NCBI RefSeq assembly: GCF_024498255.1 | Contig: NZ_CP101808.1 | Location: 423,345 to 447,344 of the forward strand | Source: Mycoplasmopsis equigenitalium | GTDB lineage: Bacteria > Bacillota_I > Bacilli_A > Mycoplasmatales > Metamycoplasmataceae | Direction of reading: 5' to 3' | Length of the DNA: 24,000 bases | Shown here: piece by piece, positions 1-24,000 of the stretch | How the letters are laid out: every line of letters starts with the position of its first letter | Position numbering within the stretch: the stretch's first letter is position 1 | The notes under the pieces: model-generated | Told to the model about the DNA's origin: nothing | What the model saw: the letters and a program-made list of their open reading frames with translations, nothing else | Databases searched by the model: none | Program-made: the position numbers and the translations under genes

Positions 1-1538
1 TCGCGCATATAATGTAATAAATCAACATCGACTACTGATTTATTTGATCTAGCGTTTCTGTAAAATGGTTTTATCGCCATGATTGGTTGACCAGAAGCAT
101 CAAGTTTTAATTTTGGATTGCCTTTTTCATCGCGAACTTCTAAGCCATTTTCATCATACTCATAAACTGGTCCACTTTTAAACACTAAAATACCAGTGTG
201 GGTAACATCAAGCCCATCTAGGTCGGTTCCAACCATTACAAAATCACCTTCTTTAAAATTGTCCATAATAAATTGTTCGTTAAAAATATTGTGATTTTTT
301 GTAAATTTAATTGCTTTAAATTTGCGATGAACCGCTTTTACGCCAGGTAATCAAAATTCCGTTACTTCATCTGGTTTTTTAGGGTTTGTTTTTTTAGCAT
401 TAATATATTTTTCGACTTCAATGATTAAATCTTTATGTTTTTCTTTAGCGCCGGCGTTCATTAAATCAACAGCATTAGTTGCAATTTTGGTATTTTCAGT
501 ACCTCAATCAGTAAAGAAGTGTTTACGAGTTGTAAAATCAACTCGGCCATCAATATATCTAACTTTTACTACATTAGCAACGAATTCATCGTAGTTTTTT
601 GACATTGCAAAAGCAACAGTATAATCCAAATACGTAAAACAATCAAGACTCAACACATCAAGAACAAGCATTTCTTCGATATCTTTTTCGAAAGAACCAA
701 TCATCTTATTACCAACATAGGTTACACCTAATAGTTTTTGGGAAATGGCAGCAACCTTTTCGCCCATAGTTTTACCACTAAGAGTGTTAGCAAAAGTTAA
801 GATTTCGTCAATTTTTGCTTTAGTTTTACCACTAGGTTGTTTAATCGGGTAAAGCGTTTGTTGCATTTTAATCATTAATTGAAGACGTTTTACCAAACCT
901 GTTTTTGCTTCCTCGACACCACTTGTAATAGCGGCCTTGTTAGCATTTAAAATTCCAATTTGCTTTTTAGCATTATCAATTTCAACTTGTGTGTAAATAC
1001 CGCTACTGTTTTTGATAATAACTTCTTGTATTTCGATGTCAGCTTCAATTTTTTTTAATTCGGCTAGTTTTCCCATTTCTGGCATCATTTTTGCAAGTAA
1101 TGTTTTAGTTTCTTGACTAGCTTTTTCGAATTCATCAACTGCTTTTTGGGCAATTTTAACTAGTCTATAACCACTTGCTTCATAACCGCTTTCAAGTTTA
1201 GCGTCATCATTTTGCAAAAAACTTAAAAAAGCTTTAACGTAAGCGTTATACTCGGTTTTAACTTTTTTGATGATTCTAACTTTTTTTTCAACATCTTTTA
1301 AGTGTGTTTTAGCACTTTTAGAAAGAACTGATAAAGCATGTTCTGCTTTTTCGACGTTATTTACAAGTTTGATGTCAAGATTATTCGTATCCGCATTAAC
1401 GTAATCTACGTAATTGGTTTTGAATTGATCAATATCTTTTTGATCATGTTTCGAAACACTAGAACACGAGATCGAACATGATGCGAAGCCAATAATAGAC
1501 AACGGAATCAGTGTTACTAAAACTCTTTTTAATTTCAT
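1..1538 (-). CDS. Surface lipoprotein with an N-terminal helical region and a C-terminal DUF1460 (amidase-like) domain; 3' end runs off the window
   Basis: ATG at 1538-1536 preceded by an AGGAAGGAGAAG RBS. The signal peptide MKLKRVLVTLIPLSIIGFASC carries a lipobox Cys. Track ORF 504..1577 ends at a TGA (504-506), and reading it as Trp leaves the frame open to position 1. Motifs LDCFTYLDYTVAFAMS, RYIDGRVDFTTRKHFFTDW and GLDVTHTGI fit my memory of DUF1460/PF07313. Confidence 0.8.
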
Positions 1539-1824: not shown

Positions 1825-1900
1825 TGGTGGCTCCGGCAGGAATCGAACCAGCGACACACGGAGCTTCAGTCCGTTGCTCTACCAACTGAGCTACAGAGCC
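1825..1900 (-). tRNA. tRNA-Phe (GAA)
   Basis: Reverse complement is GGCTCTGTAGCTCAGTTGGTAGAGCAACGGACTGAAGCTCCGT...GGTTCGATTCC...GGAGCCACCA. Cloverleaf is intact, anticodon loop is CTGAAGC, and CCA is encoded. Confidence 0.93.
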
Positions 1901-1901
1901 A

Positions 1902-1978
1902 TGGCGGTCCAGACGGGAATTGAACCCGCGATCTCCTCCGTGACAGGGAGGCGTATTAAACCACTTTACCACTGGACC
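1902..1978 (-). tRNA. tRNA-Asp (GTC)
   Basis: Reverse complement is GGTCCAGTGGTAAAGTGG...CCTCCCTGTCACGGAGG...GGTTCAATTCCCGTCTGGACCGCCA. Anticodon loop is CTGTCAC. Confidence 0.93.
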
Positions 1979-1979
1979 A

Positions 1980-2056
<77 letters not shown>

Positions 2057-2093
2057 ATGTGTAAAGAATTGGCATCTATTATAAATAGATAAA

Positions 2094-2186
2094 TGGCGGG
2101 CAATGAGGGATTCGAACCCCCGCGGGCCGTGAAGCCCCTGCTAGTTTTCAAGACTAGTCCCTTCAGCCAGGCTTGGGTAATTGCCC
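2094..2186 (-). tRNA. tRNA-Ser (TGA)
   Basis: 93 nt with a long variable arm. Reverse complement is GGGCAATTACCCAAGCCTGGCTGAAGGGACTAGTCTTGAAAACTAGC...GGTTCGAATCCCTCATTGCCCGCCA. Confidence 0.9.
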
Positions 2187-2187
2187 T

Positions 2188-2263
2188 TGGTGGACCCAGC
2201 AGGACTTGAACCTGCAACCTACCGGTTATGAGCCGGGTGCTCTAACCATTGAGCTATGGGTCC
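2188..2263 (-). tRNA. tRNA with CAT anticodon, probably tRNA-Ile2 (lysidine type) rather than elongator Met
   Basis: Reverse complement is GGACCCATAGCTCAATGGTTAGAGCACCCGGCTCATAACCGGT...GGGTCCACCA. The GGACC...GGTCCACCA acceptor resembles Firmicute tRNA-Ile(CAU). Its position after Met matches the M. capricolum cluster order as I recall it. Confidence 0.75.
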
Positions 2264-2285
2264 AGTGTGCTGAATATATTCCAAA

Positions 2286-2362
2286 TGGTAGCACCGAAGA
2301 GAGTCGAACTCTTGACCTTCCGGGTATGAACCGGATGCTCTAACCAACTGAGCTACAGTGCC
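2286..2362 (-). tRNA. Elongator tRNA-Met (CAT)
   Basis: Reverse complement is GGCACTGTAGCTCAGTTGGTTAGAGCATCCGGTTCATACCCGGAAGGTC...GGTGCTACCA. Confidence 0.88.
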
Positions 2363-2366
2363 ATAA

Positions 2367-2443
2367 TGGTGGAGAGGAAGGGACTCGAACCCTCTACCTC
2401 CTGCGTGCAAGGCAGGCGCTCTAGCCAGGTGAGCTACCCCCCC
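2367..2443 (-). tRNA. tRNA-Ala (TGC)
   Basis: Reverse complement is GGGGGGGTAGCTCACCTGGCTAGAGCGCCTGCCTTGCACGCAGG...CCTCTCCACCA. The G3:U70 identity pair is present. Confidence 0.92.
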
Positions 2444-2449
2444 ATAAAA

Positions 2450-2526
2450 TGGTGAAGAAGACAGGATTTGAACCTGCGACCACTACGTCCCAAACGTAGC
2501 GCTCTGCCAAACTGAGCTACTTCTCC
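2450..2526 (-). tRNA. tRNA-Pro (TGG)
   Basis: Reverse complement is GGAGAAGTAGCTCAGTTTGGCAGAGCGCTACGTTTGGGACGTAGT...GGTTCAAATCCTGTCTTCTTCACCA. Confidence 0.9.
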
Positions 2527-3874: not shown

Positions 3875-5032
3875 TTAATTAACATCGTTTTTATCAAGGT
3901 TAATTGTTAGAAAAACCGGACAATGATCTGAAATAAACTGGTATGGATATGATTCGGGATCGCTTGGGGGTGTTTTTTTGCTTTTAATAACATCATCGAT
4001 TCATTTTTGATCAATATAACCGTCTTTTAACGCATCATAAATTTTAATCAAACCAGGATCACTGATTAATGCATCACCCTTATAAATCATTTTGTCATAG
4101 GGATTTGCATATTTACCAAATTTATTACCAAGCGAAGTTTTTCATTCATCCAAATCTTTGGAATAAAAAGTGTATCCTGCATCAATTATTGGTTTAAAGG
4201 TAAGTGCTTCTTTTCCTAATTTAATATTAGTATCACCCATAAAAATTAGTTCGTTATTTTCACCGTCTCACTGATCAAACTCGGCCATTGCCGCACTTAA
4301 ATTAAGTGCTTCGTTGGCTTCTTGTGCGCCTATACCATCACTAAAATTTTCATTAAAATCGCTTGCTAATACTTCATCTTTTTTAGCTACACCAGGTGAA
4401 TCAAAATGACTAAAAACACAAGTAAAATCTTGGTTTGTACTTAAATCTAGAAATTTAGCACCATAAGGTGGGCGTACATAAGAGTATTTGCTAGCACTAG
4501 TGTTTTTTAAATCGAGTAAATTACTTCATGGAATATTTTCGTAAAGTTTTTCGTCAATTAACTTTAATTTACTTGCTTTATAAATGATTCCCACATGTTC
4601 GCGTTGTTGCGAATCTGCTTCAAGTCATTTATTGTTTTTTCATGCCTTGTAATCCTTGCTAGAAATTGTGTATTGTCAAACAGAAGTTGGTTGCTTTTGA
4701 TTAAGAAGTTCAATAATCGCGCTAACGCCAAGTACATCATCAATTTCTGTTAAACCAACAACATCGAAATTTTCTTTATCAATAATAGTAGAAAGCGCAA
4801 TATTTTTTAATTCTTTTTTACCATTTTGATTTTTGACGTTTCAATGCGCGATTTTTATTTTACTTAAATCTTGTGGGTTAGGTAAAGGAGTTGGATTAGG
4901 GGTTGGTGTAGGTTGTGGCTTCAAATCGGGGGTTTTGGGGCGTTTTTGTCAAAAAGGTGTACAAGAAAAGGCCATAAATAATGGTGTTATTGCTGTTAAA
5001 AGGGTAAATGTTTTCCAAGCCTTTTGCTTCAT
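3875..5032 (-). CDS. Membrane nuclease-like lipoprotein of the endonuclease/exonuclease/phosphatase (EEP) family, MnuA-like
   Basis: I translated the whole frame by hand: 385 codons, nine in-frame UGA, no TAA or TAG. The signal peptide MKQKAWKTFTLLTAITPLFMAFSC has a lipobox and is followed by a P/T-rich linker. EEP motifs VVGLTEI, FMGDTN and SDHCPVF are present. Stop is TAA at 3875-3877. The gene is absent from the ORF track. Confidence 0.8.
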
Positions 5033-9450: not shown

Positions 9451-9491
9451 ATAATTCCTTTATATTTCTGTTGTTTTAATTGTTATTTTCC

Positions 9492-9965
9492 TCAAAAATC
9501 GGTCAAAATTTGTCTTACTCTAGTAACATCGTCATTTGTACCACGTAACTCAAATTGGTAAAGTAATGGTACATTTAATTTTTTACTTAAAATTGGACCA
9601 GCAAGAGCAAATGTTTCATTAAAGTTGGTGTTACCTGAAACAATTACCCCTTTACAGTGATCGCGATTTTGTTTAACATTTAAAAATTTAATCACTTCTT
9701 TTGGCACGGCGCCTTCTTTGAATTCGCCGCCGCCACTAAATGTTGGACAAAATAACACATAGTCACGATCAACTAAAATAGTACCTTCAACTGGTTTGTC
9801 ATCTTTATTAACTAGTTTTTTTTCGTATGGAATACGTAATGAATCTAATTTAAGCTTTTGGGTCACAAATGTGTGTGTATTTTCGGTTAAACTTGAATAA
9901 TAAACACAAAGAATGTCACCACTTGGTTTGTCAATTCCTTTAACTTTAATAATATCTTTATGCAT
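9492..9965 (-). CDS. nrdI: Flavodoxin-like protein NrdI
   Basis: Lies between nrdF and nrdE. Start is probably the ATG at 9965 (MHKDIIKV..), 2 nt after the nrdF stop. Sequence VYYSSLTENTHTFV...GNTNFNETFALAG is typical of NrdI. Confidence 0.88.
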   Translation of the reverse strand: MHKDIIKVKGIDKPSGDILCVYYSSLTENTHTFVTQKLKLDSLRIPYEKKLVNKDDKPVEGTILVDRDYVLFCPTFSGGGEFKEGAVPKEVIKFLNVKQNRDHCKGVIVSGNTNFNETFALAGPILSKKLNVPLLYQFELRGTNDDVTRVRQILTDF

Positions 9966-9967
9966 GA

Positions 9968-11056
9968 TTAAAACTCCCAATCTTCATCTTCTGTTTCTTC
10001 ACTAACTCCCATCACGTATGAACTTCCGTTTCCTGAGAAGAAGTCGTGATTTTCATCAGCACGAGCTGATAATTGTGCAAATACTTCTGGCGAAATTTTA
10101 GTTTCTTCATCGGTAAATGGCGACTCGTAACCTAAGTTTTGTAAAAACTTACCAGCATTATAAAGGCTGAAACGAATAGCGTCTTCTGCTAAACTTTGAC
10201 CGTTTTCTAGCTCGAATCCTTTATAAAGTTCAGTTAAATATTTCTTTTCTAAATCGATTAATTTGTAAGTTAAATCGAAAGTGAATTTTTTCATTTCTGC
10301 TTGTCTTTCGGGTGTTGCTTTTGCCAATTTACGTTGGTATTTATAACCACTGTAGTAATTGTGGATAACTTTGTCACGTAAAATTAGACGGATAATATCA
10401 CTGGTGTTTGGCAACTTGCTTCTAGCTGCTAAATAAAATGGTAAGTAGAAACCACCATAAAGTAAAAATCCTGGCATTAAGGCAGCAGCAACTTTTGATT
10501 TGAGCGGGTCACCACATGAATAAAATGGAATTAAAGCTTTAGCACGATTTTGAAGTGATTCGTTACTGATTACTCAATCGTGCGCCTCTTCAATTTGTTC
10601 GCTTGAACAAAGTGTCGAGAAAATTGTTCCATAACTTCGAGCATGAACCCCAACCATAAATGCAAAGTTAGCATAAATAACTTGTTCATGGTCTGTTAAT
10701 CCATTTTCAATTTGTGCAATATCACAAACTGTAGCTTGAATTGTGTCTAATAAGGTAAGACCAGTAAATGTTCTTGTAATAAGTTGTTGTCAGTTTTCTG
10801 ACAATGAATTTCATGATTTCAAGTCATTTGATACTGGAATTTTTTCAGGTAATCAAAAGTTTTGTGTTACCCGGCTTCAAACTTCTAAATCCTTATCATC
10901 ATTAATTCAGTTTCAGTTAACTGAACGTAAACGGCCTTTGAATCCTTTTTTAACGTATTCAATTGGTGAAACCGATTCGTAATAATAGGCATTTTTTTGA
11001 CGAATTTTGTCATTTTTTTGTGTTTTTGGTTTTAGTGTTTTTTTTGTAATTTTCAT
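9968..11056 (-). CDS. nrdF: Class Ib ribonucleotide reductase beta subunit NrdF
   Basis: ATG at 11056 preceded by an AAAGGAGAAAGG RBS. Reading UGA as Trp gives [33 protein letters not shown], continuous with track ORF 9968..10477. Confidence 0.93.
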
Positions 11057-14389: not shown

Positions 14390-14932
14390 ATGTTCAAAAA
14401 TAAAAATGCACTTTATAATTTAATTAAAGATGCAACTAAACTAACCAAGAAGGAGGTAATGTCTATTTTAAAGCGTTACTCGGATGTTGATATGTTTCAA
14501 ATGATGTTTGAAAACGAACCTAATATCCTTTGATTGATTGCAAAAATAGATCAAAATAATATGAAACAAAAACCCGAAAACGATAAATTCAAACAAATAG
14601 ATCAGAAATTTGATCAAATTGATAAAAAATTCAAACAAATAGATGAAAAATTTGCTCAAGTAGATCAGAGATTTGATCAAATTGATAAGAAATTCGAACA
14701 GATAGATGAAAAATTTGTTCAAATAGACCAAAGATTTGATCAAATTGATAAGAGATTTGATAGCTTTGAGGCGAAATTTGAAGAAAAGTTTGAAACACTT
14801 ACTAAAACCTTACTTGGTGCAATTGCTGGGGTTGAAACTAGATTATCAAATAGATTAGATAAAATTGAAAAAGATGTTGCCGAACTTAAAGACAGGGTTA
14901 CCGTGTTAGAAAGTTATCATATGTCCGCTTAA
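14390..14932 (+). CDS. Hypothetical coiled-coil protein with about 10 tandem KFxQIDx heptads
   Basis: ATG at 14390 after an AAAGGAGGTG RBS. One UGA Trp (14531) joins the N-terminal 47 aa to track ORF 14534..14932. Total 180 aa. No signal peptide or catalytic motif was recognised. Confidence 0.75.
14585..14794 (+). repeat. Tandem 21-bp (7-codon) coding repeat, about 10 units, with a higher-order 63-bp unit
   Basis: KFKQIDQ KFDQIDK KFKQIDE KFAQVDQ RFDQIDK KFEQIDE KFVQIDQ RFDQIDK RFDSFEA KFEEKFE. The 63-bp blocks 14627-14689 and 14690-14752 are near-identical. Confidence 0.9.
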
Positions 14933-15023: not shown

Positions 15024-15100
15024 TGGGGCAAGCGACGGGAATCGAACCCGCGAATGTCGGAGCCACAACCCGATGCGTTAACCACTTCGCCACACTCGCC
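15024..15100 (-). tRNA. tRNA-His (GTG)
   Basis: Reverse complement is GGCGAGTGTGGCGAAGTGGTTAACGCATCGGGTTGTGGCTCCGA...GGTTCGATTCCCGTCGCTTGCCCCA. The extra 5' G(-1) typical of tRNA-His is present and the anticodon loop is TTGTGGC. Confidence 0.92.
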
Positions 15101-15499: not shown

Positions 15500-15517
15500 T
15501 TTTTTTTTTTTTTTTTT
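15500..15517 (+). repeat. Homopolymeric poly(T)18 tract upstream of the giant surface-protein gene
   Basis: Direct count gives ...atc + T18 + ggc. The tract lies 115 nt upstream of the ATG at 15632, and its last two T form part of a TTGGCA -35-like hexamer (15516-15521). Confidence 0.95.
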
Positions 15518-15543: not shown

Positions 15544-15566
15544 ATATTATATTTAGAATATAATAT
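15544..15566 (+). promoter_or_regulatory. Perfect 10-bp-arm palindrome overlapping a TATAAT -10 candidate (15559-15564)
   Basis: ATATTATATT-tag-AATATAATAT. The arms are exact reverse complements. TATAAT lies in the right arm, about 68 nt before the start codon. Confidence 0.3.
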
Positions 15567-15631
15567 TAATGATTTTATACTAATGTATATATAAAAATGA
15601 TTAAACAAACGTATACGAGAAAGGACAAGAT

Positions 15632-18600
15632 ATGTCTAAGAAAAAGAAAGTTATATTAGGATTACTACTTGTTGCGCCTTTAGCAGCTGTAGCCGCATCA
15701 ACTGGTGTTCTATATTGAAAACAACAAACCGAAAAACCAATTTCTGCTTATTATGAATTAAAACCCATTAAAGATAAAAGTGAACGTTTAGCAAGTAATG
15801 TTAAGCAAAATGAAATAGGTTTTATTAATTTCCCTCAAGATGCCACATTCACTGTAAAAAGTATAAGTGCTGATGATGGACTCGGAAAATTACAACTTCA
15901 AATTACAATCACCCAAAATGGTAAAGTAACTGAATTAAATAAAGAAGTTATTGGTTTTAAACCAGCATTTAGTTTTTTTGATGATTTGTTAAAAACAGAG
16001 CTCAAAACAGTTTCGACAGGAAAATTACCATCAAAAGTGTCATATCCTGATCTTGCTGCTTTTAACGCCGACACCAATAACAAACTTGGATACATTAATG
16101 AATTAGGTTACACATATAGCGTACAAGAAGTGACAAACATCGATTACAAGGGACAAAAAATTGTTGCTGTAACCGTCCAAAAAGACGGCAAAAGCATTAT
16201 TACAAAAAAGTTAACCGTTAGTGGATTTAAAGCAATTTCTGGCAAAGAAAATGTTGAAAAAGCAGCAGAACTTTTCCTCAATGCTTCTACCATAACAAAA
16301 GGTGAGTTTTTACCAACTCAAATTAAATACGACAATTTTGAAGACTTTAAAAACGATGCCATAATTAATACTAATGATTCAATTACATCAATTGAACAAA
16401 AATTTGGAGTAATAATTACCAATATCACCAATATTGGCGAAGCACAAAATAATGATGATTTAGGTACAAAAACAATTAAATTGTTAATTACTCAAAAAGA
16501 TAACCCAAGCATTAAAAAAGAAGTGCTTGTAACTATCAAAGGTTACAACACTAATGCAAAAGACATGGAAAAAGTTAATGCTGCATTAGCGCAAATTACA
16601 GATGACAAAATCGAAGAAACAAATGAACACGCTAAACTTAAACCTTCGCTTGTACAATACGTTGATGTCCAAGGTTTTGATGAAGACTTACCTAATGTAC
16701 ATATTTTAAAACTTAGAAACACATACAAAGTAATAATTGAAGTTGTTAAAATAGGAACAACAACTAAAGCAATTAACCATGATGATTTAGGAACAAAAGA
16801 AGTTAAGATTCGTGTTTCAAGAAACAATTCATTTAAAGAAAAAACCATTACAATTAGTGGTTATAACACAGCTGATGGGTACAAAAAATACCAAGAAATG
16901 GAATTGATCGCGCAAGCAAAAGCAAGATTAACCGATACTCCAACAATTAAAAACACCAACGATTTAGCATCAGAAACAAAATATACTTTATATCAAGAAC
17001 TAGATGATGACATCGCTCATAATTTACGCGGTATTGAAGCTGAATTAGGTGTTAACTTTATATTCGATGTTAATAATTACGCAATTGATGACGATGTTGC
17101 GGGAACAAAGACAATTAAATTAAAAATTGTAGCAGGCGATACAACTGACTCAACCCATACATTCAAGATTACAAACTTTAAGCCTGAAAATATATACAAT
17201 AAAGATCAGGTTGATTTAGCATTCGCAAATCTTAATACCGAAGCTTCAACAATTAATAATACAAACACTCTTCCTGAAGATGTAACTTATAACAACCTAG
17301 ATCTAGCAACACTTGTTGCTGATACTGTTTTGGCGGGCAGTGGCGATACAATTAACTTATTGCGCGTTCAAAATACATATAAAGTTGAGTTAAATGTAAC
17401 ATTAAAAGAAAACACCTTGGATGGTCGCAAAATTTTAAATGTTGTTATTAGTCGAGGTACAGGTGCTAATAAAGCGACTTCTGGTGTTAAAGAAGTTGTA
17501 ATTTGTGGTTACAAAACCAAAGCAAAAGCCGATAATGAAGCGGCTGTTGAAAATACAAAAAATGCAATTCTTCAAGAATATTCAACAAAAAATACTGAAA
17601 AAACTGCAGATTTGGATATTATAAATTACGATCTTAACAACTTACTAGCTACAGTTAACGATCCAAGTAATACTTTAAAACCAACTAACGGTGTAAGTAT
17701 CAAAATAAATGCCGAAAACAATGATGATGGATTTAAAATTTTAACTTTAGAATTAAGTAAAGGCGAAGGGAAAGATGCCGTTACTGTCACAAAAGACATT
17801 AAAATTATTAATTATCTAACAGCTGCAGGTTATGATGAGAAATTAGTGGATGATACACTTGCTGCAATCAATAAGAAAACAGAAGATACAACTAAAACGC
17901 ATCAAAATGAATTTATTAATGACCCATATAATAGCGACTTAGCATTACTTGATGCTGATACTACTTTCAACTTGCAAAAAATTGCATCTGAAACTGGTAC
18001 AACAATTACCTTTACAACAAGTGATAATCCTGATGGAACAAAAACAATTAATGTTAGTGTAAAACGTGGTGCAACAACTAAAACTACTACCCTCAAAATA
18101 ACCGGTTTCCAAACCGAACAAGACCATAATGATTTATTAGAACTTGATGCTGCCGCTTTATTAATTACAGCGCAAGAAACAATAAACAACAAAACAAAAC
18201 AAGCAAGTGAAGTTAAGTATCTAGATATTAATGCGGTAGATACTGACATTGCTCTTGATTTACAAAATGATGTGATTGTTGCCAAAGGTTTAAGTGGAAT
18301 TCAAATTGTTAGTGTTAACAATGGAGATGGTGTAAAAACCTTAAATCTTACCCTTACCAAAGGTAATGTATCTAAATCAGGAGTTAATCTTAAAATCACT
18401 GGTTTTAGAACAGCACAATTAGCTGCTAATTACGCAAAAGTTGAGAGTGCAATTAATCAAATTATTTCCGGAAAAGATGCTGATGTTAGTGACTTTTTGA
18501 CAAAAAACTATAAATATAAAGATAAAACCGACCCGATTGCTACACTAGATGCTGGAATTCGTGAATTAGACTTAAATCAAATTGCACAAACAAATGGTGT

Positions 18601-21600
18601 AACACTAACCATAAGTGAAGAAAAAGATTTTGATGGTTATAAACTAGTAACAATTAATGTCACTTGTGGTGATGTACCAAATGTTGCCAGCGCAACAAAA
18701 GAAATTAAAGTTGTTGGATTCAAAACCCAAGCAACATACGATAAAGAACAAGCGGATAAAGCAGATATCGCTACAGTTGCTGCTGCAAAAAGTCAATTAC
18801 AAGCAATTATCAATAACCAAGTAACAATTAATAACAAAGATTACCTACCAGAAGCAGTTACATATGTAACTCTTAGTGAATTTGATGAAGATATTGCTTT
18901 TGACATTAATTCATTAATGGTTAATGGGCTAAAAATTGAATTAGAAAGTTCAAGATCAAATAATGATTTAGGAACAAAAGAAATTGAATTATTAATTAGT
19001 AAAGGTGTTGGCAGCGATACGATTACACTTACTGTTTCAGAATATTTAACGACAGCCAAAAATGATGAAAACAAAGTTAATGAATTGATTAACTTATTAC
19101 CTTCAAGTGTTAAAACACTAACTAACAAAGGTAAAATACCTAGTGCAGTGAATTACAATAACGAGTTAGCAAAATTAGATGCTGACACAGGTTTAAACTT
19201 AGTTAATAAAGCGGTGGATGGCATAAGTATTATAATTACCAGTGATACAGAAGATGCTGCTGCTGGTCAAAAAAATCTTGTTCTAACAATTACTAAAGAC
19301 GCAACAACTAAAACTCATAATTTAACTATTAGTGGTTTTAAAACAACTAAACAAGTTGAAGATGAAAACACTGTAAATCAGGTACTTGGTTTAATTCAAA
19401 ATGAATACGTAACAAAAACTCATACCCAAGTTCAAGCAAAAGATGTAAATTATGAAAGAAACTTTACAACATTCGCTAACGATACCGATACAACTTTATT
19501 AAGTTATCTATCCGTTCCTTATTTAGTAACAATTAACATTATCAACACTGAAGAAAATCACGATGGTTTTAAAAATATAACTTTACAAGTTACTAAAGGT
19601 GACACAGTTAAAGAAAAACAAATAAAAGTAACTGGTTACGCAACACAAAAAGATATTAATACAAAATTAGTGACCTGAGCTAAGAGTCAATTACTTAACA
19701 CTTACACAAGCAATGGTAATGAAAATAAATTACCAAGCGCAGTAACATACTCAGAAATTCAAGACATTATAAACAACACTAATTTAGTTGTTGATAACCT
19801 TACAAGTAAAGGTGTAAAGGTTACAATTCAAACCCAACAAGATACAGAGTCGGGTACCAAAACAATTACGCTTAACTTAAGTGTTGGAAACGGCGCAGAC
19901 GAAGTAACTGATACCAAAGTAATTAAAATCGAAGGTTTTAAAACCAAAGCTAAAGACGATAATGAAAAAGCTGTTGAAAGTGCAAAAAATGCAATTCTTC
20001 AAGAATATTCAACAAAAAATACTGAAAAAATGGCAAATCACGATGATTTTACAAATGAAATTACGAAGTTAATTGCTAGTGTCGAAGATGCCGGCAACAC
20101 GCTTTCACCAGCAGGTGTTACTGTTAGATTAATTACCGAAACTAACCACGATGGTTACAAACTTGTTTCACTAGAATTAAGTAAAGGTAACGGCGAAGAT
20201 GCCGTAGTTGTTAAAAAAGAAAATATTAAGATTAATGGTTATATGGCTGCAGCTGCATATAATGAAAAACAAGTAGACAAAGCAATTGCAAAAATTAATC
20301 TTAATAAAGAAGATGTTACAAAATCACATCTAAATGAGTACATTAATGATCCATATAACAATGTGTTAGCGTCGCTTGATGCTGATACAACTTTCAACTT
20401 ACAAGGAATTGCTTCTGAAACTGGTACAACAATTACCTTTACAACAACCGACAATACTGATGGAACAAAGACAATTAATGTAAGAGTAACTCGAAATGCC
20501 ACAACACAAAACACAACTCTTAAAGTTACAGGCTTCCAAACCAAACAAGATTATGATGATTTGAACGCGGTTAATAGTTCAGTTGCAAAAATTAGTGCTA
20601 TCCAAGCAAATGACAGAACAACAACTTCACATAAAAATACATCATCATCAGGAGCTAAGTATTCTAATATTAATGAACTTGATACCGATATTACTTACGA
20701 TTTAAATTCAATCATAACAGCGGATGGAACAACAATTTCAATTGTAAAAGAAGAAAATAATGATGATAGAACTAAAATAGTTCATTTAAGAGTAACAAAA
20801 GGTAAAGCAAGCAAAGAAGTAAAATTAGAAGTTTTAGGATATCAAACAAAAGAATACGCTGATGCATATAATAAATTTATGATCGCTAAGTCAAAAGTTT
20901 CTAGAAATCAAACTATAACAAGATACAGTCATTTGCTTGCAAATCAAATACATTACTTTAATGGTGGTCCTACTCCAGTTGATCAACTTGATCTAGATAT
21001 TGTCAAACCTGTTGATAGAGTTAAATTTAGTGAAATTACCTCACAGTATAATGTTGAATTCTTTATAATTGAGGAAACTTCTTTTGCCGGGTTTAAAACA
21101 TTTAAAATTTCTATTACAGCAAAAGACCCTATACTTAAAAATATGTCAGATACTCTTGAAATAAGCGTCAATGGTTTTGCAACACATGATCAGCTTTTTG
21201 CAAAAGAAAATGCTGAGAAAGTTGAAAGAATTAGAGCATATATCGCGGCCAATAATAATCAAATAACTAAGAAATACAAAAATTCGACGATGGGTGAGGC
21301 ATTTAAAATTTACACTAAAGATGTTGAAAGTATTTACGAGATTGTAAAAGATACAGAACTAAAATTATATGATGAATTAAGAAAACCCGAAAACGCCAAT
21401 GTTAGTGTAAAAATAAATATGAATAACAGCAAGTATGGAACAAATCATGGTCAAATGTTTATGCTTATTTCATTCACAATTCAATGTTATGATGCACAAG
21501 CAACTGAAACAATTTCAGTTAGCGGATTCATGCCAGAATATGAAAAAGCAATTAATGAAGCGGTTAAGTCATTACCAACAACAGTATCAACCATTAACAA

Positions 21601-24000
21601 TAAAAGTAAACTTCCTTCTGCTACGAATTACTCTAATAATTTAACATTATTGGATGCTGATACAGGTTTAAATTTATCAACAAAACTTGCTAATTACTCA
21701 AGTTTATACAACATTACTTTTAGCGAAATTTCGAACAATGATGCCGCTGGTACAAAAGAGATCGAGATCACTTTTACAGACAATGACTATTACAATCACT
21801 ACACCAAAACTCATAGACTTACAATTACTGGTTTCACAACAACTAAACAAATCGAAGATGAAAAAACAGTAAATGAAGTAATTAATTTAATTGAAAATGA
21901 ATACGTAACAATTAACAATAAAGAAAAACAAGCAAAAGATGTAAATTACCACAGAAACTTTACAACCCTTGCTAATGACACCAACCCTGTATTGTTAAGT
22001 TACTTAGAAGCGCCTAAATCTGTCGAAATTAGTATCATCAACACTGAAGATAATCACGATGGTTTTAAAAATATAACTCTACAAGTTACTAAAGGCGACT
22101 CAGTTGAAGAAAAACAAATAAAAGTAACTGGTTACGCAACACAAAAAGATATCAACACAAAATTAGTAGCTTGAGCAAAAAATCAATTATTAGATACTTA
22201 CACAAGCAACGGTAACGAAAACAAATTACCAAATGCATTAACATACAACACAATCCAAGAAATTGTAAACAACACTAATTTAGTTGTTGATAACCTTACA
22301 AGTAAAGGTGTAAAGGTTACAATTCAAACCCAACAAGATACAGAGTCGGGTACCAAAACAATTGCGCTTAACTTAAGTGTTGGAAGTGGTGCAGACGAAG
22401 TAACTGATACCAAAGTAATTACAATCGAAGGCTTTAAAACCAAAGCTAAAGACGATAATGAAAAAGCTGTTGAAAGTGCGAAAAATGCAATTCTTCAAGA
22501 ATATTCAACAAAAAATACTGAAAAAATGGCAAATCAGGATGATTTTGCAAATGAAATTGCGAAGTTAATTGCTAGTGTCGAAGATGCTGGCAACACGCTT
22601 TCACCAGCAGGTGTCACTGTTAGATTAATTACCGAAACTAACCACGATGGTTACAAACTTGTTTCACTAGAACTAAGTAAAGGTAACGGCGAAGATGCCG
22701 TAGTTGTTAAAAAAGAAAATATTAAGATTAATAGTTATATGACCGCTGCTGCATATGATGCAAAACAAGTGGACAAAGCAATTGCAAAAATTAATCTTAA
22801 TAAAGAAGATGTTACAAAATCACATCTAAATGAGTACATTAATGATCCATATAACAATGTGTTAGCGTCGCTTGATGCTGATACAACTTTCAACTTACAA
22901 GGAATTGCTTCTGAAACTGGTACAACAATTACCTTTACAACAAGTGATAATCCTGATGGAACAAAGACAATTAATGTAAGTGTAAATCGGGGAGCTTCAA
23001 CACAAAACACAACTCTTAAAGTTACAGGATTCCAAACCAAACAAGATTATGATGATTTACAAGTTCTTGAAGCAGCATCTAACCTCTTTACCGACCAAGT
23101 TACAATCAACAATCAAGATATTCAAACATCACAAATTACATACCAAAATCTTCAAGATGTTGACGATGATACCCCACTTAATATTCAAGTAGATATTATT
23201 GAAGCTAAAGCACTTAAAGGTATCGAAGTTATTAACATCACTAACGAAGATGGATATAAACTTGTAAACCTTAGATTATTAAAAGGTAATGTAACAAAAG
23301 AAGTAAGTTTTAAAGTAACTGGCTTTAGAACAGCACTTCAAGTCCTAAACCACAATCAAGTTGCTGAAGCACTTGCTAAACTTGTTCATGGAACAGATAC
23401 AAATGTTAGTCACTCACTAACAAAAGATTATAAATATACAACTCAAAGTGATCCAATCACTACCCTTGATGCTGGTGTTAATGAAATGAACCTAGCAGAA
23501 ATCATTCAAACTCATGGTGTTAGTCTTGTAATAACAAATGAAGCAGATTTTGATGGTTATAAAGTCTTGACGATCAAGGTTTCACGTGGTAGTGGTCTTG
23601 ACCTAGCAACAACAACTAAGGAAATTAAAATTTCTGGTTTTAAAACCAACGCAATTCACGAACAAGAATTACGTGATGAAGCTAATCGTCAAGCCGTAGC
23701 ACAAGTTAAAACACAACTTCAAACAATCATTAACAATCGAGTTACAAAATTCAATAAGGATAAACTTCCAAGCACAGTGACTTATACTAACATCAATAAA
23801 CTTGATGAAGATATCGACTTTGATCTTCTAGCATTAATGACTGATGGCTTAACAATTCGTTTAGGAACAACTAGTCATAATGATGATGCCGGAAGCAAGA
23901 CAATTGAATTATTAATTGATAAAGGTGCAGGTAGTGATAAAGTTTCAATTGAAGTTACAGGTTATTTAACAACTACTCAAGATAATCTAAACAAGATCAA
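15632..24000 (+). CDS. Giant repetitive membrane-anchored surface protein (at least 2,789 aa, 3' partial) with about 27 tandem ~100-aa modules; candidate mycoplasma lipoprotein-associated (Lipoprotein_17-like) repeat domain
   Basis: ATG at 15632 after a GAAAGGA RBS. N terminus MSKKKKVILGLLLVAPLAAVAASTGVLYW is a signal/anchor with no lipobox Cys. UGA Trp codons at 15716, 19676 and 22172 join track ORFs 15986..19678 and 20030..22174 to the untracked 22175..24000 segment, which I hand-translated with no stops. The recurring module is a helical linker, then (K)LPSxVxY, DxDT, NDDxGTKxIxLxIxKG, and I(T/S)GF(K/Q)T. Confidence 0.85.
17515..18125 (+). repeat. Older, more diverged copy of the two-module block found at 19937-20562 and 22433-23058
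   Basis: AAAAAATGCAATTCTTCAAGAATATTCAACAAAAAATACTGAAAAAA is shared identically by all three copies. The offset from copy 1 to copy 2 is 2,427 bp, in frame. Protein similarity is about 55-60% by eye. Confidence 0.8.
19310..20562 (+). repeat. Super-repeat copy A (partner at 21806..23058, offset exactly 2,496 bp, in frame)
   Basis: The core 19771-20562 matches 22267-23058 with only scattered substitutions, roughly 95% by eye. The flanks 19310-19770 and 21806-22266 are about 80% similar. Confidence 0.9.
21806..23058 (+). repeat. Super-repeat copy B (partner of 19310..20562)
   Basis: Same as copy A. A long identical run, for example, is ACTAATTTAGTTGTTGATAACCTTACAAGTAAAGGTGTAAAGGTTACAATTCAAACCCAACAAGATACAGAGTCGGGTACCAAAACAATT. 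Confidence 0.9.

What the first reader, a model, noticed from the sequence alone, without database searches (positions are those of the whole stretch)
15632..24000. One giant (>2,789 codon) modular surface protein hidden behind UGA codons
The ORF track shows two large ORFs (1,230 and 714 aa) and nothing after 22174. All three pieces are in the same frame, separated only by TGA within the conserved context KLV(T/A)-W-AK(S/N)QLL. The frame also extends upstream to an ATG with an RBS at 15632, through one more UGA. The result is a single protein with an N-terminal hydrophobic anchor lacking a lipobox Cys. It carries about 27 tandem ~100-aa modules, each ending in a G(F/Y)xT motif with a period of about 300 bp, and it is still open at the window edge. 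Proteins like this in Mollicutes are typically adhesins or immune-evasion antigens. This module type is poorly characterised structurally and functionally.
Basis: partly seen in the sequence, partly recalled or inferred. Interest (0 to 1): 0.75.

Follow-up and report, generated by a model that had tools for sequence, protein, structure and literature searches.

The report
Giant mycoplasma repeat surface protein
This is one very long mycoplasma membrane-anchored surface protein built from 31 copies of a known ~100-residue repeat; it only looked "hidden" because mycoplasmas read UGA as tryptophan, and the public genome record already calls it as one gene.

Summary
Window 15632-24000 is one open frame with no TAA or TAG and three in-frame TGA codons, and this genome reads TGA as Trp. 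In NrdF, 6 of 7 TGAs align with Trp in a solved homologue. The Trp at one homologous repeat position is TGA, TGA and TGG in three copies.

The window matches NCBI record LR215022.1 (805-kb mycoplasma genome) with 1 mismatch in 20,381 bases. That record already calls the gene as one 3,495-aa product with PF04200. An independent short-read contig extends the frame 2,059 nt past the window.

The protein has:
- an N-terminal signal-anchor with no lipobox Cys;
- 31 Lipoprotein_17 modules, 27 of them in the window;
- a ~300-aa non-repeat C-terminal domain with no Pfam or PDB match.

The array grew by triplication of an 8-module block. This explains the "conserved context" of the two internal TGAs.

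The gene heads a tandem cluster of paralogues. The family occupies about 7.7% of the genome at three loci. Nine T15-T18 tracts, the only long homopolymers in 88 kb, each lie 55-114 nt upstream of one of these surface-protein genes. That suggests phase-variable expression.

Verdict: a real but ordinary new member of a known kind, of modest interest.

The parts
15500..15517 (+). T18 homopolymer tract, 114 nt upstream of the start codon. It is a candidate slipped-strand (phase-variation) element of the promoter region.
   Evidence: It is the only homopolymer of 10 nt or more in the 24-kb window; shuffles give 0.02 runs of 14 or more. Eight further T15-T18 tracts lie 55-106 nt upstream of paralogous surface-protein genes elsewhere in the same genome. 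These nine are all the homopolymers of 12 nt or more in 88 kb.
15545..15581 (+). Candidate promoter region with -10-like boxes: TATTAT 15545-15550, TATAAT 15559-15564, and a tool-called TTTAGA-18-TATACT site at 15552-15581.
   Evidence: These are consensus matches only. Three promoter-like sites were found against 6.4 expected in shuffles, so they are not significant on their own.
15617..15625 (+). Ribosome-binding site GAGAAAGGA, 6 nt before the ATG.
   Evidence: Read directly from the sequence.
15632..24000 (+). Coding sequence of the giant protein, codons 1-2,789. It continues about 2,119 nt past the window edge, for a total of 3,495 aa.
   Evidence: One frame with no TAA or TAG. The NCBI gene call is 3,495 aa and starts at the base equivalent to 15632. 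Contig L005 overlaps 23648-24000 at 100% identity and keeps the frame open for 2,059 nt more.
15650..15712 (+). N-terminal signal-anchor (residues 7-27, after MSKKKK). There is no lipobox Cys.
   Evidence: It is the only segment with a 19-residue Kyte-Doolittle mean above 1.6 in the whole protein. The first Cys is at residue 625.
15716..15718 (+). In-frame TGA encoding Trp29, at the end of the membrane segment.
15722..23971 (+). Array of 27 Lipoprotein_17 (PF04200) modules, M1-M27. Four more (M28-M31) lie beyond the window.
   Evidence: The AlphaFold2 model of module M16 has pLDDT 95.7 and shows a linker helix, two short helices and a three-stranded sheet. dN/dS between paralogous modules is 0.16-0.63.
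17519..19945 (+). Super-repeat copy 1 (modules M7-M14). This block is orthologous to the single copy in the 1,765-aa relative P0001.
19676..19678 (+). In-frame TGA encoding Trp1349, in module M14.
19946..22441 (+). Super-repeat copy 2 (modules M15-M22). M18-M19 (20849-21535) are divergent outliers.
   Evidence: The DNA copies are spaced 2,427 nt apart.
22172..22174 (+). In-frame TGA encoding Trp2181, in module M22. It is homologous to the M14 codon, and the M30 copy uses TGG.
22442..24000 (+). Super-repeat copy 3 (M23-M27 in the window; M28-M30 beyond it).
   Evidence: The DNA copies are spaced 2,496 nt apart.
14390..14932 (+). A 180-aa coiled-coil protein gene. It belongs to a small-gene family that accompanies the large surface-protein genes at all three loci seen.
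   Evidence: Its sequence is. Paralogues are g4, g6 and g8 and h1 and h5; a 190-aa opposite-strand gene sits at the same position in the third locus. It has no Pfam family above threshold, only coiled-coil noise.

Best explanation
The region encodes the first 2,789 residues of a single 3,495-residue surface protein of a mycoplasma that reads UGA as tryptophan.

Shown:
- A short basic N-terminus and one hydrophobic segment without a lipobox cysteine.
- 31 diverged ~100-residue Lipoprotein_17 modules following it. Each is modelled as a linker helix, two short helices and a three-stranded sheet.
- A ~300-residue non-repeat C-terminal domain at the end of the chain. Paralogues and one orthologue share it, but it resembles nothing in Pfam or the PDB.
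- Growth of the array from a 14-module ancestor by triplication of an 8-module, ~2.4-2.5-kb block, followed by divergence and patchy exchange between copies. All of it is under purifying selection.

Inferred:
- The N-terminal segment inserts the protein in the membrane as a signal-anchor with the rest outside the cell.
- The module array acts as a long, probably flexible stalk. At 3-4 nm per module it would be roughly 100 nm long.
- The stalk presents the C-terminal domain far from the membrane, in the manner of a fibrillar adhesin or surface shield.
- Expression is stochastically switched by length changes in the T18 tract 114 nt upstream of the start. Eight paralogous surface-protein genes in the same genome carry the same kind of tract.
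For: Genetic code:
- Housekeeping genes stay intact only if TGA is read through.
- In NrdF, 6 of 7 TGAs align with Trp in the solved homologue 6GP2, E = 7e-189.
- Trp codons in the other genes are 30 TGA and 3 TGG.
- The homologous Trp of M14, M22 and M30 is encoded TGA, TGA and TGG.

One gene:
- One frame with no TAA or TAG.
- NCBI calls a single 3,495-aa product.
- An independent contig from SRR3495114 continues the frame.

Anchor:
-.

Modules:
- PF04200 at 171.6 bits.
- 31 HMM hits, four of them outside the training set.
- Module model with pLDDT 95.7, matching the description of the domain in 10.1101/2022.09.07.507039.

Stalk role:
- PF04200 is used as a 'stalk' domain in the fibrillar-adhesin classifier of 10.1101/2021.12.07.471604.

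C-terminal domain:
- Present in the extension and 54% identical to that of P0001.
- Shared with paralogues g3, g5, g7, h2, h3 and h4.

Expansion history:
- P0001 has the scaffold M1, M3-M14, M31 and the C-terminal domain.
- The DNA copies are spaced 2,427 and 2,496 nt apart.

Selection:
- dN/dS is 0.16-0.63.

Phase variation:
- 9 of 9 long homopolymers in 88 kb are T15-T18 tracts lying 55-114 nt upstream of surface-protein genes.
- Homopolymeric T tracts in front of mycoplasma surface-protein genes are read this way in PMC3931370 and PMC4081997.
Against: - There are no transcript, proteome or surface-localisation data.
- The N-terminal segment could be a cleaved signal peptide rather than an anchor, which would release the protein.
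- Large mycoplasma surface proteins are often cut into fragments after translation (my own knowledge), so 'one gene' need not mean 'one mature polypeptide'.
- The C-terminal domain has no detectable similarity to any adhesive domain. Its model is confident only for the first ~120 residues.
- The T18 tract of this gene is not in a canonical -35/-10 spacer, and its flanks differ from the cassette shared by several paralogues.
- Several paralogues have a short hairpin just before the tract, so a terminator or insulator role is conceivable there.
- No length variation of any tract was observed.
- The last ~19 codons and the stop were not read.
- The DNA repeats are too diverged (97% or less over 300 nt) for rapid slippage-type size variation.
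Confidence: 0.75

Rival explanations
1. UGA terminates translation here, so the region encodes two or three separate proteins (about 1,230 aa, about 714 aa and a third fragment), as the table-11 ORF track suggests.
For: Table-11 ORF calling gives ORFs at 15986-19678 and 20030-22174. Gene calls on the short-read Logan contig also split the gene at TGAs.
Against: - 6 of 7 TGAs in NrdF align with Trp in a solved homologue.
- Obg, NrdE and the permease all need read-through.
- The TGA in M14 and M22 corresponds to TGG in M30.
- Five TGAs in the C-terminal domain align with Trp in P0001.
- The fragments would begin in the middle of a module, with no anchor and no ribosome-binding site.
- NCBI calls one CDS.
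Confidence: 0.02
2. It is a classic size- and phase-variable mycoplasma lipoprotein antigen of the Vlp, Vsa or MBA type. Its main role would be rapid antigenic and size variation through slippage in near-identical coding repeats.
For: It is a repetitive surface protein in a multigene family with homopolymer tracts upstream. The Lipoprotein-17 literature links the domain to antigenic variation.
Against: - There is no lipobox Cys.
- TRF finds no tandem DNA repeat.
- Modules are 15-35% identical, and even the youngest copies are 90% identical in DNA over 1.2 kb.
- dN/dS of 0.2-0.4 indicates constraint, not diversification.
- A conserved non-repeat C-terminal domain implies a specific function.
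Confidence: 0.12
3. It is a component or homologue of the Mycoplasma mobile-type gliding machinery, a Gli349-like leg.
For: There is a weak NCBIfam hit to glide_Gli349, E = 1.9e-5. Gli349 and Gli123 also contain Lipoprotein-17 repeats and N-terminal transmembrane segments.
Against: The score is 21.5 bits against a curated cut-off of 1,750. The similarity is explained by the shared repeat. The neighbouring genes are paralogues of the same family rather than gli521 or gli123-like genes, judging by their architecture, although they were not scanned against the Gli models.
Confidence: 0.03
4. The extreme length is an assembly artefact, a mis-expanded or collapsed repeat array.
For: The array is long and repetitive. 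I could not independently verify the whole array with a second assembly.
Against: - Repeat copies are well diverged: 97% nt identity or less over 300 nt, 90% over 1.2 kb, and most at or below 80%. They are therefore uniquely placeable.
- An independent short-read contig matches the window end at 100% and runs through M27-M31 into the C-terminal domain.
- Every copy keeps an intact frame under purifying selection.
Confidence: 0.04

Closest known systems
Mvsp proteins of Mycoplasma mobile (for example MvspI, 220 kDa, 16 Lipoprotein-17 domains)
   Same: They are surface proteins built from tandem ~100-aa Lipoprotein_17 (PF04200) domains joined by a helix, and they belong to multigene families. 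The repeat is proposed to set the length and flexibility of the protein.
   Different: This protein has 31 modules, against a maximum of 16 reported for Mvsp in that preprint. It has a transmembrane signal-anchor instead of a lipobox, a conserved non-repeat C-terminal domain, and T-tracts upstream. It is not an orthologue: the exhaustive search gave only 12 hits, of which at least 4 (P0002, P0003, P0004, P0006) are its own paralogues from this genome.
P0001, a 1,765-aa protein from another organism (the best hit of the exhaustive search)
   Same: It is 41-43% identical and collinear. It has the same kind of N-terminal anchor, the same module order (M1, M3-M14, M31) and the same C-terminal domain at 54% identity.
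   Different: It lacks module M2 and the two extra 8-module blocks (M15-M30), so it is half the length. Its source organism and locus could not be retrieved.
Fibrillar adhesins (anchor, stalk of repeated domains, distal adhesive domain)
   Same: It has a membrane anchor at one end, a long stalk of a Pfam domain that the fibrillar-adhesin classifier lists as a stalk domain, and a distinct non-repeat domain at the far end.
   Different: The anchor is an N-terminal transmembrane segment in a wall-less bacterium, not a C-terminal sortase motif. The distal domain matches no known adhesive domain. Adhesion is untested.
Phase-variable surface-protein loci with homopolymeric promoter tracts (M. hyorhinis vlp; M. 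bovoculi vpbA-E; M. californicum lipoproteins)
   Same: Paralogous surface-protein genes are each preceded by a long homopolymer, poly-T in M. bovoculi. Here nine T15-T18 tracts precede family members.
   Different: These genes are much larger and mostly encode TM-anchored proteins rather than lipoproteins. The tract-to-(-10) geometry is not the classic spacer position for the giant gene. No switching has been demonstrated.
Gli349 and Gli123 of the M. mobile gliding machinery
   Same: They are large surface proteins with an N-terminal transmembrane segment and Lipoprotein-17 repeats.
   Different: This protein fails the NCBIfam Gli349 model by a wide margin, 21.5 against 1,750 bits. Nothing in the locus shown suggests gliding genes.

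Membership tests
Pfam PF04200 (Lipoprotein_17, 'lipoprotein associated domain') proteins | Whole-protein score at or above the gathering cut-off of 22.4 bits | tested here: met
   171.6 bits, E = 4.2e-51, with 9 stretches passing on their own. The NCBI-record product also carries a precomputed PF04200 hit.
Pfam PF04200 (Lipoprotein_17) proteins | A domain of ~100 aa with a connecting helix and a three-stranded beta-sheet, as described for Mvsp and Gli123 | tested here: met
   The AlphaFold2 model of M16 has pLDDT 95.7 with H2-16, E21-23, H40-46, H51-58, E61-68, E74-82 and E85-94. This agrees with the description in 10.1101/2022.09.07.507039.
Pfam PF04200 (Lipoprotein_17) proteins | Structural match to the solved family members (2KRT, 3JVC/3K63) | tested here: inconclusive
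Bacterial lipoproteins (the usual carriers of this domain) | An N-terminal signal peptide ending in a lipobox with an invariant Cys | tested here: not met
   There is no Cys before residue 625. The N-terminus is MSKKKK followed by a 21-residue hydrophobic segment. Neighbours g1 and g10 do have lipoboxes.
Gli349 gliding-leg protein (NCBIfam NF045861) | Score at or above the curated cut-off of 1,750 bits | tested here: not met
   21.5 bits.
Size-variable tandem-repeat antigens (Vlp, Vsa, MBA type) | Near-identical in-frame tandem DNA repeats prone to slippage | tested here: not met
   TRF finds no arrays. Modules are 15-35% identical in protein. The best DNA identity is 97% over 300 nt, and that pair lies 2.5 kb apart.
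Phase-variable contingency genes with promoter homopolymers | A long homopolymeric tract in the 5' regulatory region, recurring across paralogues | tested here: met
   T18 lies at 15500-15517. Eight more T15-T18 tracts lie upstream of paralogues, and they are the only long homopolymers in 88 kb.
Phase-variable contingency genes with promoter homopolymers | Tract length varies within populations and switches expression | not testable with these tools
   No read-level data or second assembly of the tract could be retrieved.
Fibrillar adhesins | A stalk of tandem repeated domains plus a cell anchor | tested here: met
   There are 31 PF04200 modules and an N-terminal transmembrane segment. PF04200 is listed as a stalk domain.
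Fibrillar adhesins | A recognisable adhesive (ligand-binding) domain | tested here: inconclusive
   A conserved ~300-aa C-terminal domain exists. It has no Pfam hit and no PDB hit by sequence or by fold. Its model is only partly confident.

The most novel reading that the evidence does not exclude
The giant protein and its paralogues would form a lineage-specific family found in essentially two organisms among 1.84 billion representative proteins. They would be membrane-anchored fibrils of tunable length whose conserved C-terminal domain is a new ligand-binding fold. Each gene would be switched independently by a T15-T18 promoter tract. The 8-module block copy number would set how far the tip is projected, about 100 nm for this one. 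Together this would give the cell a combinatorial, length-graded adhesin or shield repertoire that uses about 8% of its genome.
Probability: 0.25. Interest if true: 0.5.

Novelty: new member of a known kind. Interest (0 to 1): 0.3.

Why it matters
As found, it matters little. Reading UGA as Trp is textbook for mycoplasmas, the gene is already one CDS in GenBank, and Lipoprotein_17 repeat proteins are a known class.

The context is more interesting. A minimal 805-kb genome spends about 7.7% of its DNA on one family. The family's architecture is TM anchor, Lipoprotein_17 stalk and an unknown conserved tip domain. Its largest member doubled in length through 8-module block amplification. Its members all carry long poly-T tracts upstream.

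If the tip domain is a host-binding module and the tracts are switches, this would be a tractable system for studying two things: how stalk length and combinatorial expression shape adhesion or immune evasion, and what a structurally uncharacterised domain does.

Tried and rejected
Searches that led nowhere:
- The search for homologous proteins was nearly blind to this family. A 1,438-aa query and a 313-aa query gave no hits. A C-terminal-domain profile gave one 171-aa fragment, which proved very useful.
- Both genome-contig scans failed. The C-terminal 313 aa found nothing. The neighbouring permease found only distant Lactobacillus and Bacteroidetes relatives. I therefore made no cross-species synteny comparison, and the species name stays undetermined. 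Literature searches for the accession found only its neighbours, LR215023 (M. iowae) and LR215024 (M. glycophilum).
- Look-ups failed for the table-11 fragments (714 aa, 1,230 aa and 132 aa) and for P0001.

Negative results:
- Foldseek against the PDB gave nothing significant for the module or for the C-terminal domain.
- PDB sequence searches with the module profile, with P0009 and with the C-terminal-domain profile gave nothing significant.
- hhalign of the C-terminal domain against the module profile was not significant (probability 0.8%). The idea that the first half of that domain is a degenerate Lipoprotein_17 module is therefore unsupported.
- A literature search for 'massive surface proteins' of M. 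arthritidis gave nothing relevant.

Readings rejected:
- A programmed recoding or selenocysteine-like reading of the conserved TGA context. It is a duplicated module, and the third copy uses TGG.
- A lipoprotein. There is no Cys.
- A Gli349 orthologue. The score is far below the cut-off.
- A terminator role for the window's T18 tract. No hairpin was called there.

Not done:
- A three-module structure prediction. I used the last structure job on the C-terminal domain instead.

Full report
OBSERVATION. Translating window 15632-23998 in one frame gives 2,789 codons with no TAA or TAG. There are exactly three TGAs, at 15716, 19676 and 22172. An in-frame TAA at 15602 closes the frame upstream. ATG 15632 is the first start codon after it and follows GAGAAAGGA by 6 nt.

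GENETIC CODE. With TAA and TAG as the only stops, the window resolves into intact housekeeping genes that each contain TGAs: Obg has 3, NrdE 2, NrdF 7 and a permease 4. I tested NrdF directly. Its table-4 translation matches the solved chain 6GP2 at E = 7e-189, and 6 of its 7 TGA codons align with Trp in that chain. Across nine other genes of the window, Trp is encoded by TGA 30 times and by TGG 3 times. Inside the giant gene, the Trp at one homologous position of three repeat copies is encoded TGA (M14), TGA (M22) and TGG (M30). UGA is therefore Trp, and 'hidden behind UGA' is an artefact of the standard-code ORF track.

SOURCE AND FULL LENGTH.
- An exact look-up of the window's RplL finds NCBI assembly GCA_900660595.1, record LR215022.1 (805,386 bp). 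The giant gene is called there as one 3,495-aa product with a PF04200 hit.
- The window matches that record with 1 mismatch in 20,381 bases.
- LR215023 and LR215024 are NCTC type strains of M. iowae and M. glycophilum. I could not establish the species of LR215022.
- A C-terminal-domain profile retrieved a 171-aa fragment (P0013) on contig SRR3495114_919. That run also carries the identical RplL.
- Bases 1-353 of this contig (L005) are 100% identical to window 23648-24000. The same frame then stays open for 2,059 nt more. This gives 3,476 residues, about 19 short of the annotated end.

ARCHITECTURE.
- Anchor. The N-terminus MSKKKK-VILGLLLVAPLAAVAASTGVLYW is the only hydrophobic segment in the protein, and the first Cys is residue 625. 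It is a signal-anchor or a cleavable signal peptide, not a lipoprotein signal.
- Modules in the window. 27 modules of 77-117 aa follow, each ending in a G[FY]xT-like motif.
- Total modules. An HMM built from these finds 31 modules in the extended protein. It finds M28-M31, which it had never seen, at E = 1e-15 to 1e-23.
- Pfam. PF04200 matches at 171.6 bits against a cut-off of 22.4, although only 9 modules pass individually.
- Module structure. AlphaFold2 on module M16, using the sister modules as its alignment, gives pLDDT 95.7 and pTM 0.85. The model has an N-terminal helix, a short strand, two short helices and a three-stranded sheet. This agrees with the published description of the domain.
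- Solved structures. Foldseek finds no significant PDB match. A profile of canonical repeats reaches 2KRT and 3JVC ('conserved hypothetical membrane lipoprotein') only at E about 2. The link to solved structures is therefore plausible but was not demonstrated here.

C-TERMINAL DOMAIN. After M31 comes a ~300-aa non-repeat domain.
- It is 54% identical to the C-terminus of P0001 and 22-29% identical to those of four other hits.
- Five of its TGAs align with Trp in P0001.
- It has no Pfam match and no PDB match by sequence.
- It is not detectably a degenerate module.
- A model of the P0001 domain is confident only over its first ~120 residues (mean pLDDT 62) and finds nothing in the PDB.

HOW THE ARRAY GREW.
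- Most modules are 15-35% identical to one another. They also fall into an 8-module super-repeat: M7-14, M15-22 and M23-30. The DNA copies are spaced 2,427 and 2,496 nt apart.
- The best relative, P0001 (1,765 aa, 41-43% identical, collinear), has the scaffold M1, M3-M14, M31 and the C-terminal domain. This protein is that scaffold plus two extra 8-module blocks.
- Identity between copies is mosaic. M13-16 against M21-24 is 74-95% identical (90% at the DNA level). M17-19 are outliers. This suggests later exchange or replacement.
- dN/dS is 0.16-0.63 for all pairs. The modules are therefore constrained as protein.
- TRF finds no DNA tandem repeat. With this divergence, assembly collapse and rapid slippage are both unlikely.
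- The two internal TGAs lie at the same position of M14 and M22. That fully explains their 'conserved context'.

FAMILY AND LOCUS.
- An exhaustive HMMER search of 1.84 billion representatives gave only 12 hits at E <= 1e-3. All but one (P0008) carry PF04200.
- P0002, P0003, P0004 and P0006 are encoded in the same genome.
- Cluster downstream of the giant. About 154 nt after the expected stop of the giant gene, and co-oriented with it, lies a cluster of at least 27.7 kb (g1-g12). It holds genes of 731, 1,187, 1,479, 1,422, 1,458, 662, 101 and 582 aa and more.
- Second locus. It holds at least four genes of 1,416-1,607 aa.
- Third locus. It holds a split copy.
- Most members have TM anchors without Cys, and g3, g5, g7, h2, h3 and h4 have the C-terminal domain.
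- The family occupies about 62 kb, or 7.7% of the genome.
- Small coiled-coil genes, paralogues of the window's 180-aa ORF at 14390-14932, are interspersed among the large genes.

T TRACTS.
- A T18 run at 15500-15517 lies 114 nt upstream of the start. It is the only homopolymer of 10 nt or more in the window, and shuffles give 0.02 runs of 14 or more.
- In the 88 kb of this genome that I hold there are nine homopolymers of 12 nt or more. All are T15-T18, all are on the coding strand, and all lie 55-114 nt upstream of a surface-protein start. The genes are the giant, g5, g7, g9, an unannotated lipoprotein-signal ORF, h2, h4, h6 and the split copy.
- Several share a cassette, TTTTTTGC-Tn-GTAAGAGAAAATAATATAAT. 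The giant's flanks differ, but it keeps the tract.
- Genome papers on M. bovoculi and M. californicum read such tracts as phase-variation switches.
- I observed no length variation, and the geometry at the giant gene is not the classic spacer position. Phase variation therefore remains an inference.

MECHANISM.
- Shown: one gene; UGA is Trp; an N-terminal hydrophobic segment, 31 PF04200 modules and a conserved tip domain; block amplification; purifying selection; recurrent T tracts.
- Inferred: the hydrophobic segment acts as a membrane anchor with the rest of the chain outside the cell.
- Inferred: the modules form a long flexible stalk, about 100 nm at 3-4 nm per module. This is in line with the 'stalk' use of PF04200 and the length-tuning idea for Mvsp and Gli proteins.
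- Inferred: the stalk presents the tip domain for adhesion or shielding, and expression is switched by T-tract slippage.

RIVALS. Four alternatives are argued against by specific tests:
- separate proteins terminated at UGA;
- a Vlp/Vsa/MBA-type slippage antigen;
- a Gli349 homologue (21.5 against 1,750 bits);
- an assembly artefact.

VERDICT. The finding is correct but ordinary. It is a new, very large member of the known Lipoprotein_17 surface-protein class and is already one CDS in the public record. The family context is the more interesting part: a lineage-specific expansion, an uncharacterised tip domain, poly-T tracts and 8-module block amplification.

Noticed in passing
L007 1-16440 and L006 1-16377 (record LR215022.1 positions 37505 down to 9803, downstream of the window): The giant gene heads a co-oriented cluster of at least 27.7 kb. 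The cluster holds Lipoprotein_17 genes of 731, 1,187, 1,479, 1,422, 1,458, 662, 101, 582 and 572+ aa. Two further loci (L008 and L009) hold more paralogues. In total the family takes about 62 kb, or 7.7% of an 805-kb genome.
   Followed up: yes
window 15500-15517; L007 11688-11704; L006 5890-5907, 10633-10649, 11742-11758; L008 3356-3372, 12921-12935, 18516-18532; L009 5056-5072: There are nine T15-T18 tracts. They are the only homopolymers of 12 nt or more in 88 kb of this genome. Each lies 55-114 nt upstream of a surface-protein gene. Several share the cassette TTTTTTGC-Tn-GTAAGAGAAAATAATATAAT.
   Followed up: partly
L006 about 10705-10990 (+): An unannotated short ORF starts about 55 nt after a T17 tract. 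It has a classic lipoprotein signal (MKKKIFFLSLSGIAAFAATATVISCSN...). It is probably a truncated lipoprotein gene remnant.
   Followed up: no
window 14390-14932 (+); paralogues at L007 10750-11316 (-), L006 5042-5434 (-) and 11002-11457 (-), L008 2368-2931 (-) and 17548-17943 (-): A family of small (130-190 aa) coiled-coil proteins with QIDxKF-type repeats accompanies the large surface-protein genes. A 190-aa opposite-strand gene occupies the same position in the third locus (L009 4114-4686). In the window the copy is co-oriented with the giant gene; elsewhere it is divergent. No Pfam family passes threshold.
   Followed up: partly
window 20849-21535 (modules M18-M19): Two modules in super-repeat copy 2 are outliers. 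They are 112 and 117 aa long and only about 15-30% identical to any other module, including their positional counterparts M10/M11 and M26/M27. Their origin is unexplained; they could have been replaced or could have diverged fast.
   Followed up: no
L009 5167-5832 and 6001-9417: A 221-aa gene with an upstream T17 tract is followed by the 1,138-aa P0004, which has no N-terminal anchor. Together they look like one paralogue split by a frameshift or a stop, so probably a pseudogene.
   Followed up: no
window 9839: This is the single base difference between the window (A) and the copy of LR215022.1 fetched as L001 (C). It lies within the nrdI gene (9483-9965, minus strand).
   Followed up: no
window 3875-5032 (-) and 3-1538 (-): Two lipoprotein genes have clear lipoboxes (…LFMAFSC and …IGFASC). 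The first contains 9 TGA codons. The second matches the precomputed AmiA-like Pfam hit of the gene at the corresponding end of L001.
   Followed up: no
window 1825-2526 (-) and 15024-15099 (-): There is a cluster of eight tRNA genes (Phe, Asp, Met, Ser, Met, Met, Ala, Pro). A lone tRNA-His lies between the coiled-coil gene and the T18 tract.
   Followed up: no
tools: The word-indexed protein search and both genome-collection scans failed to return the window's own protein, its paralogues or its genome. Other tools showed that they exist in public data. Negative results from those two tools are therefore uninformative for this family.
   Followed up: partly
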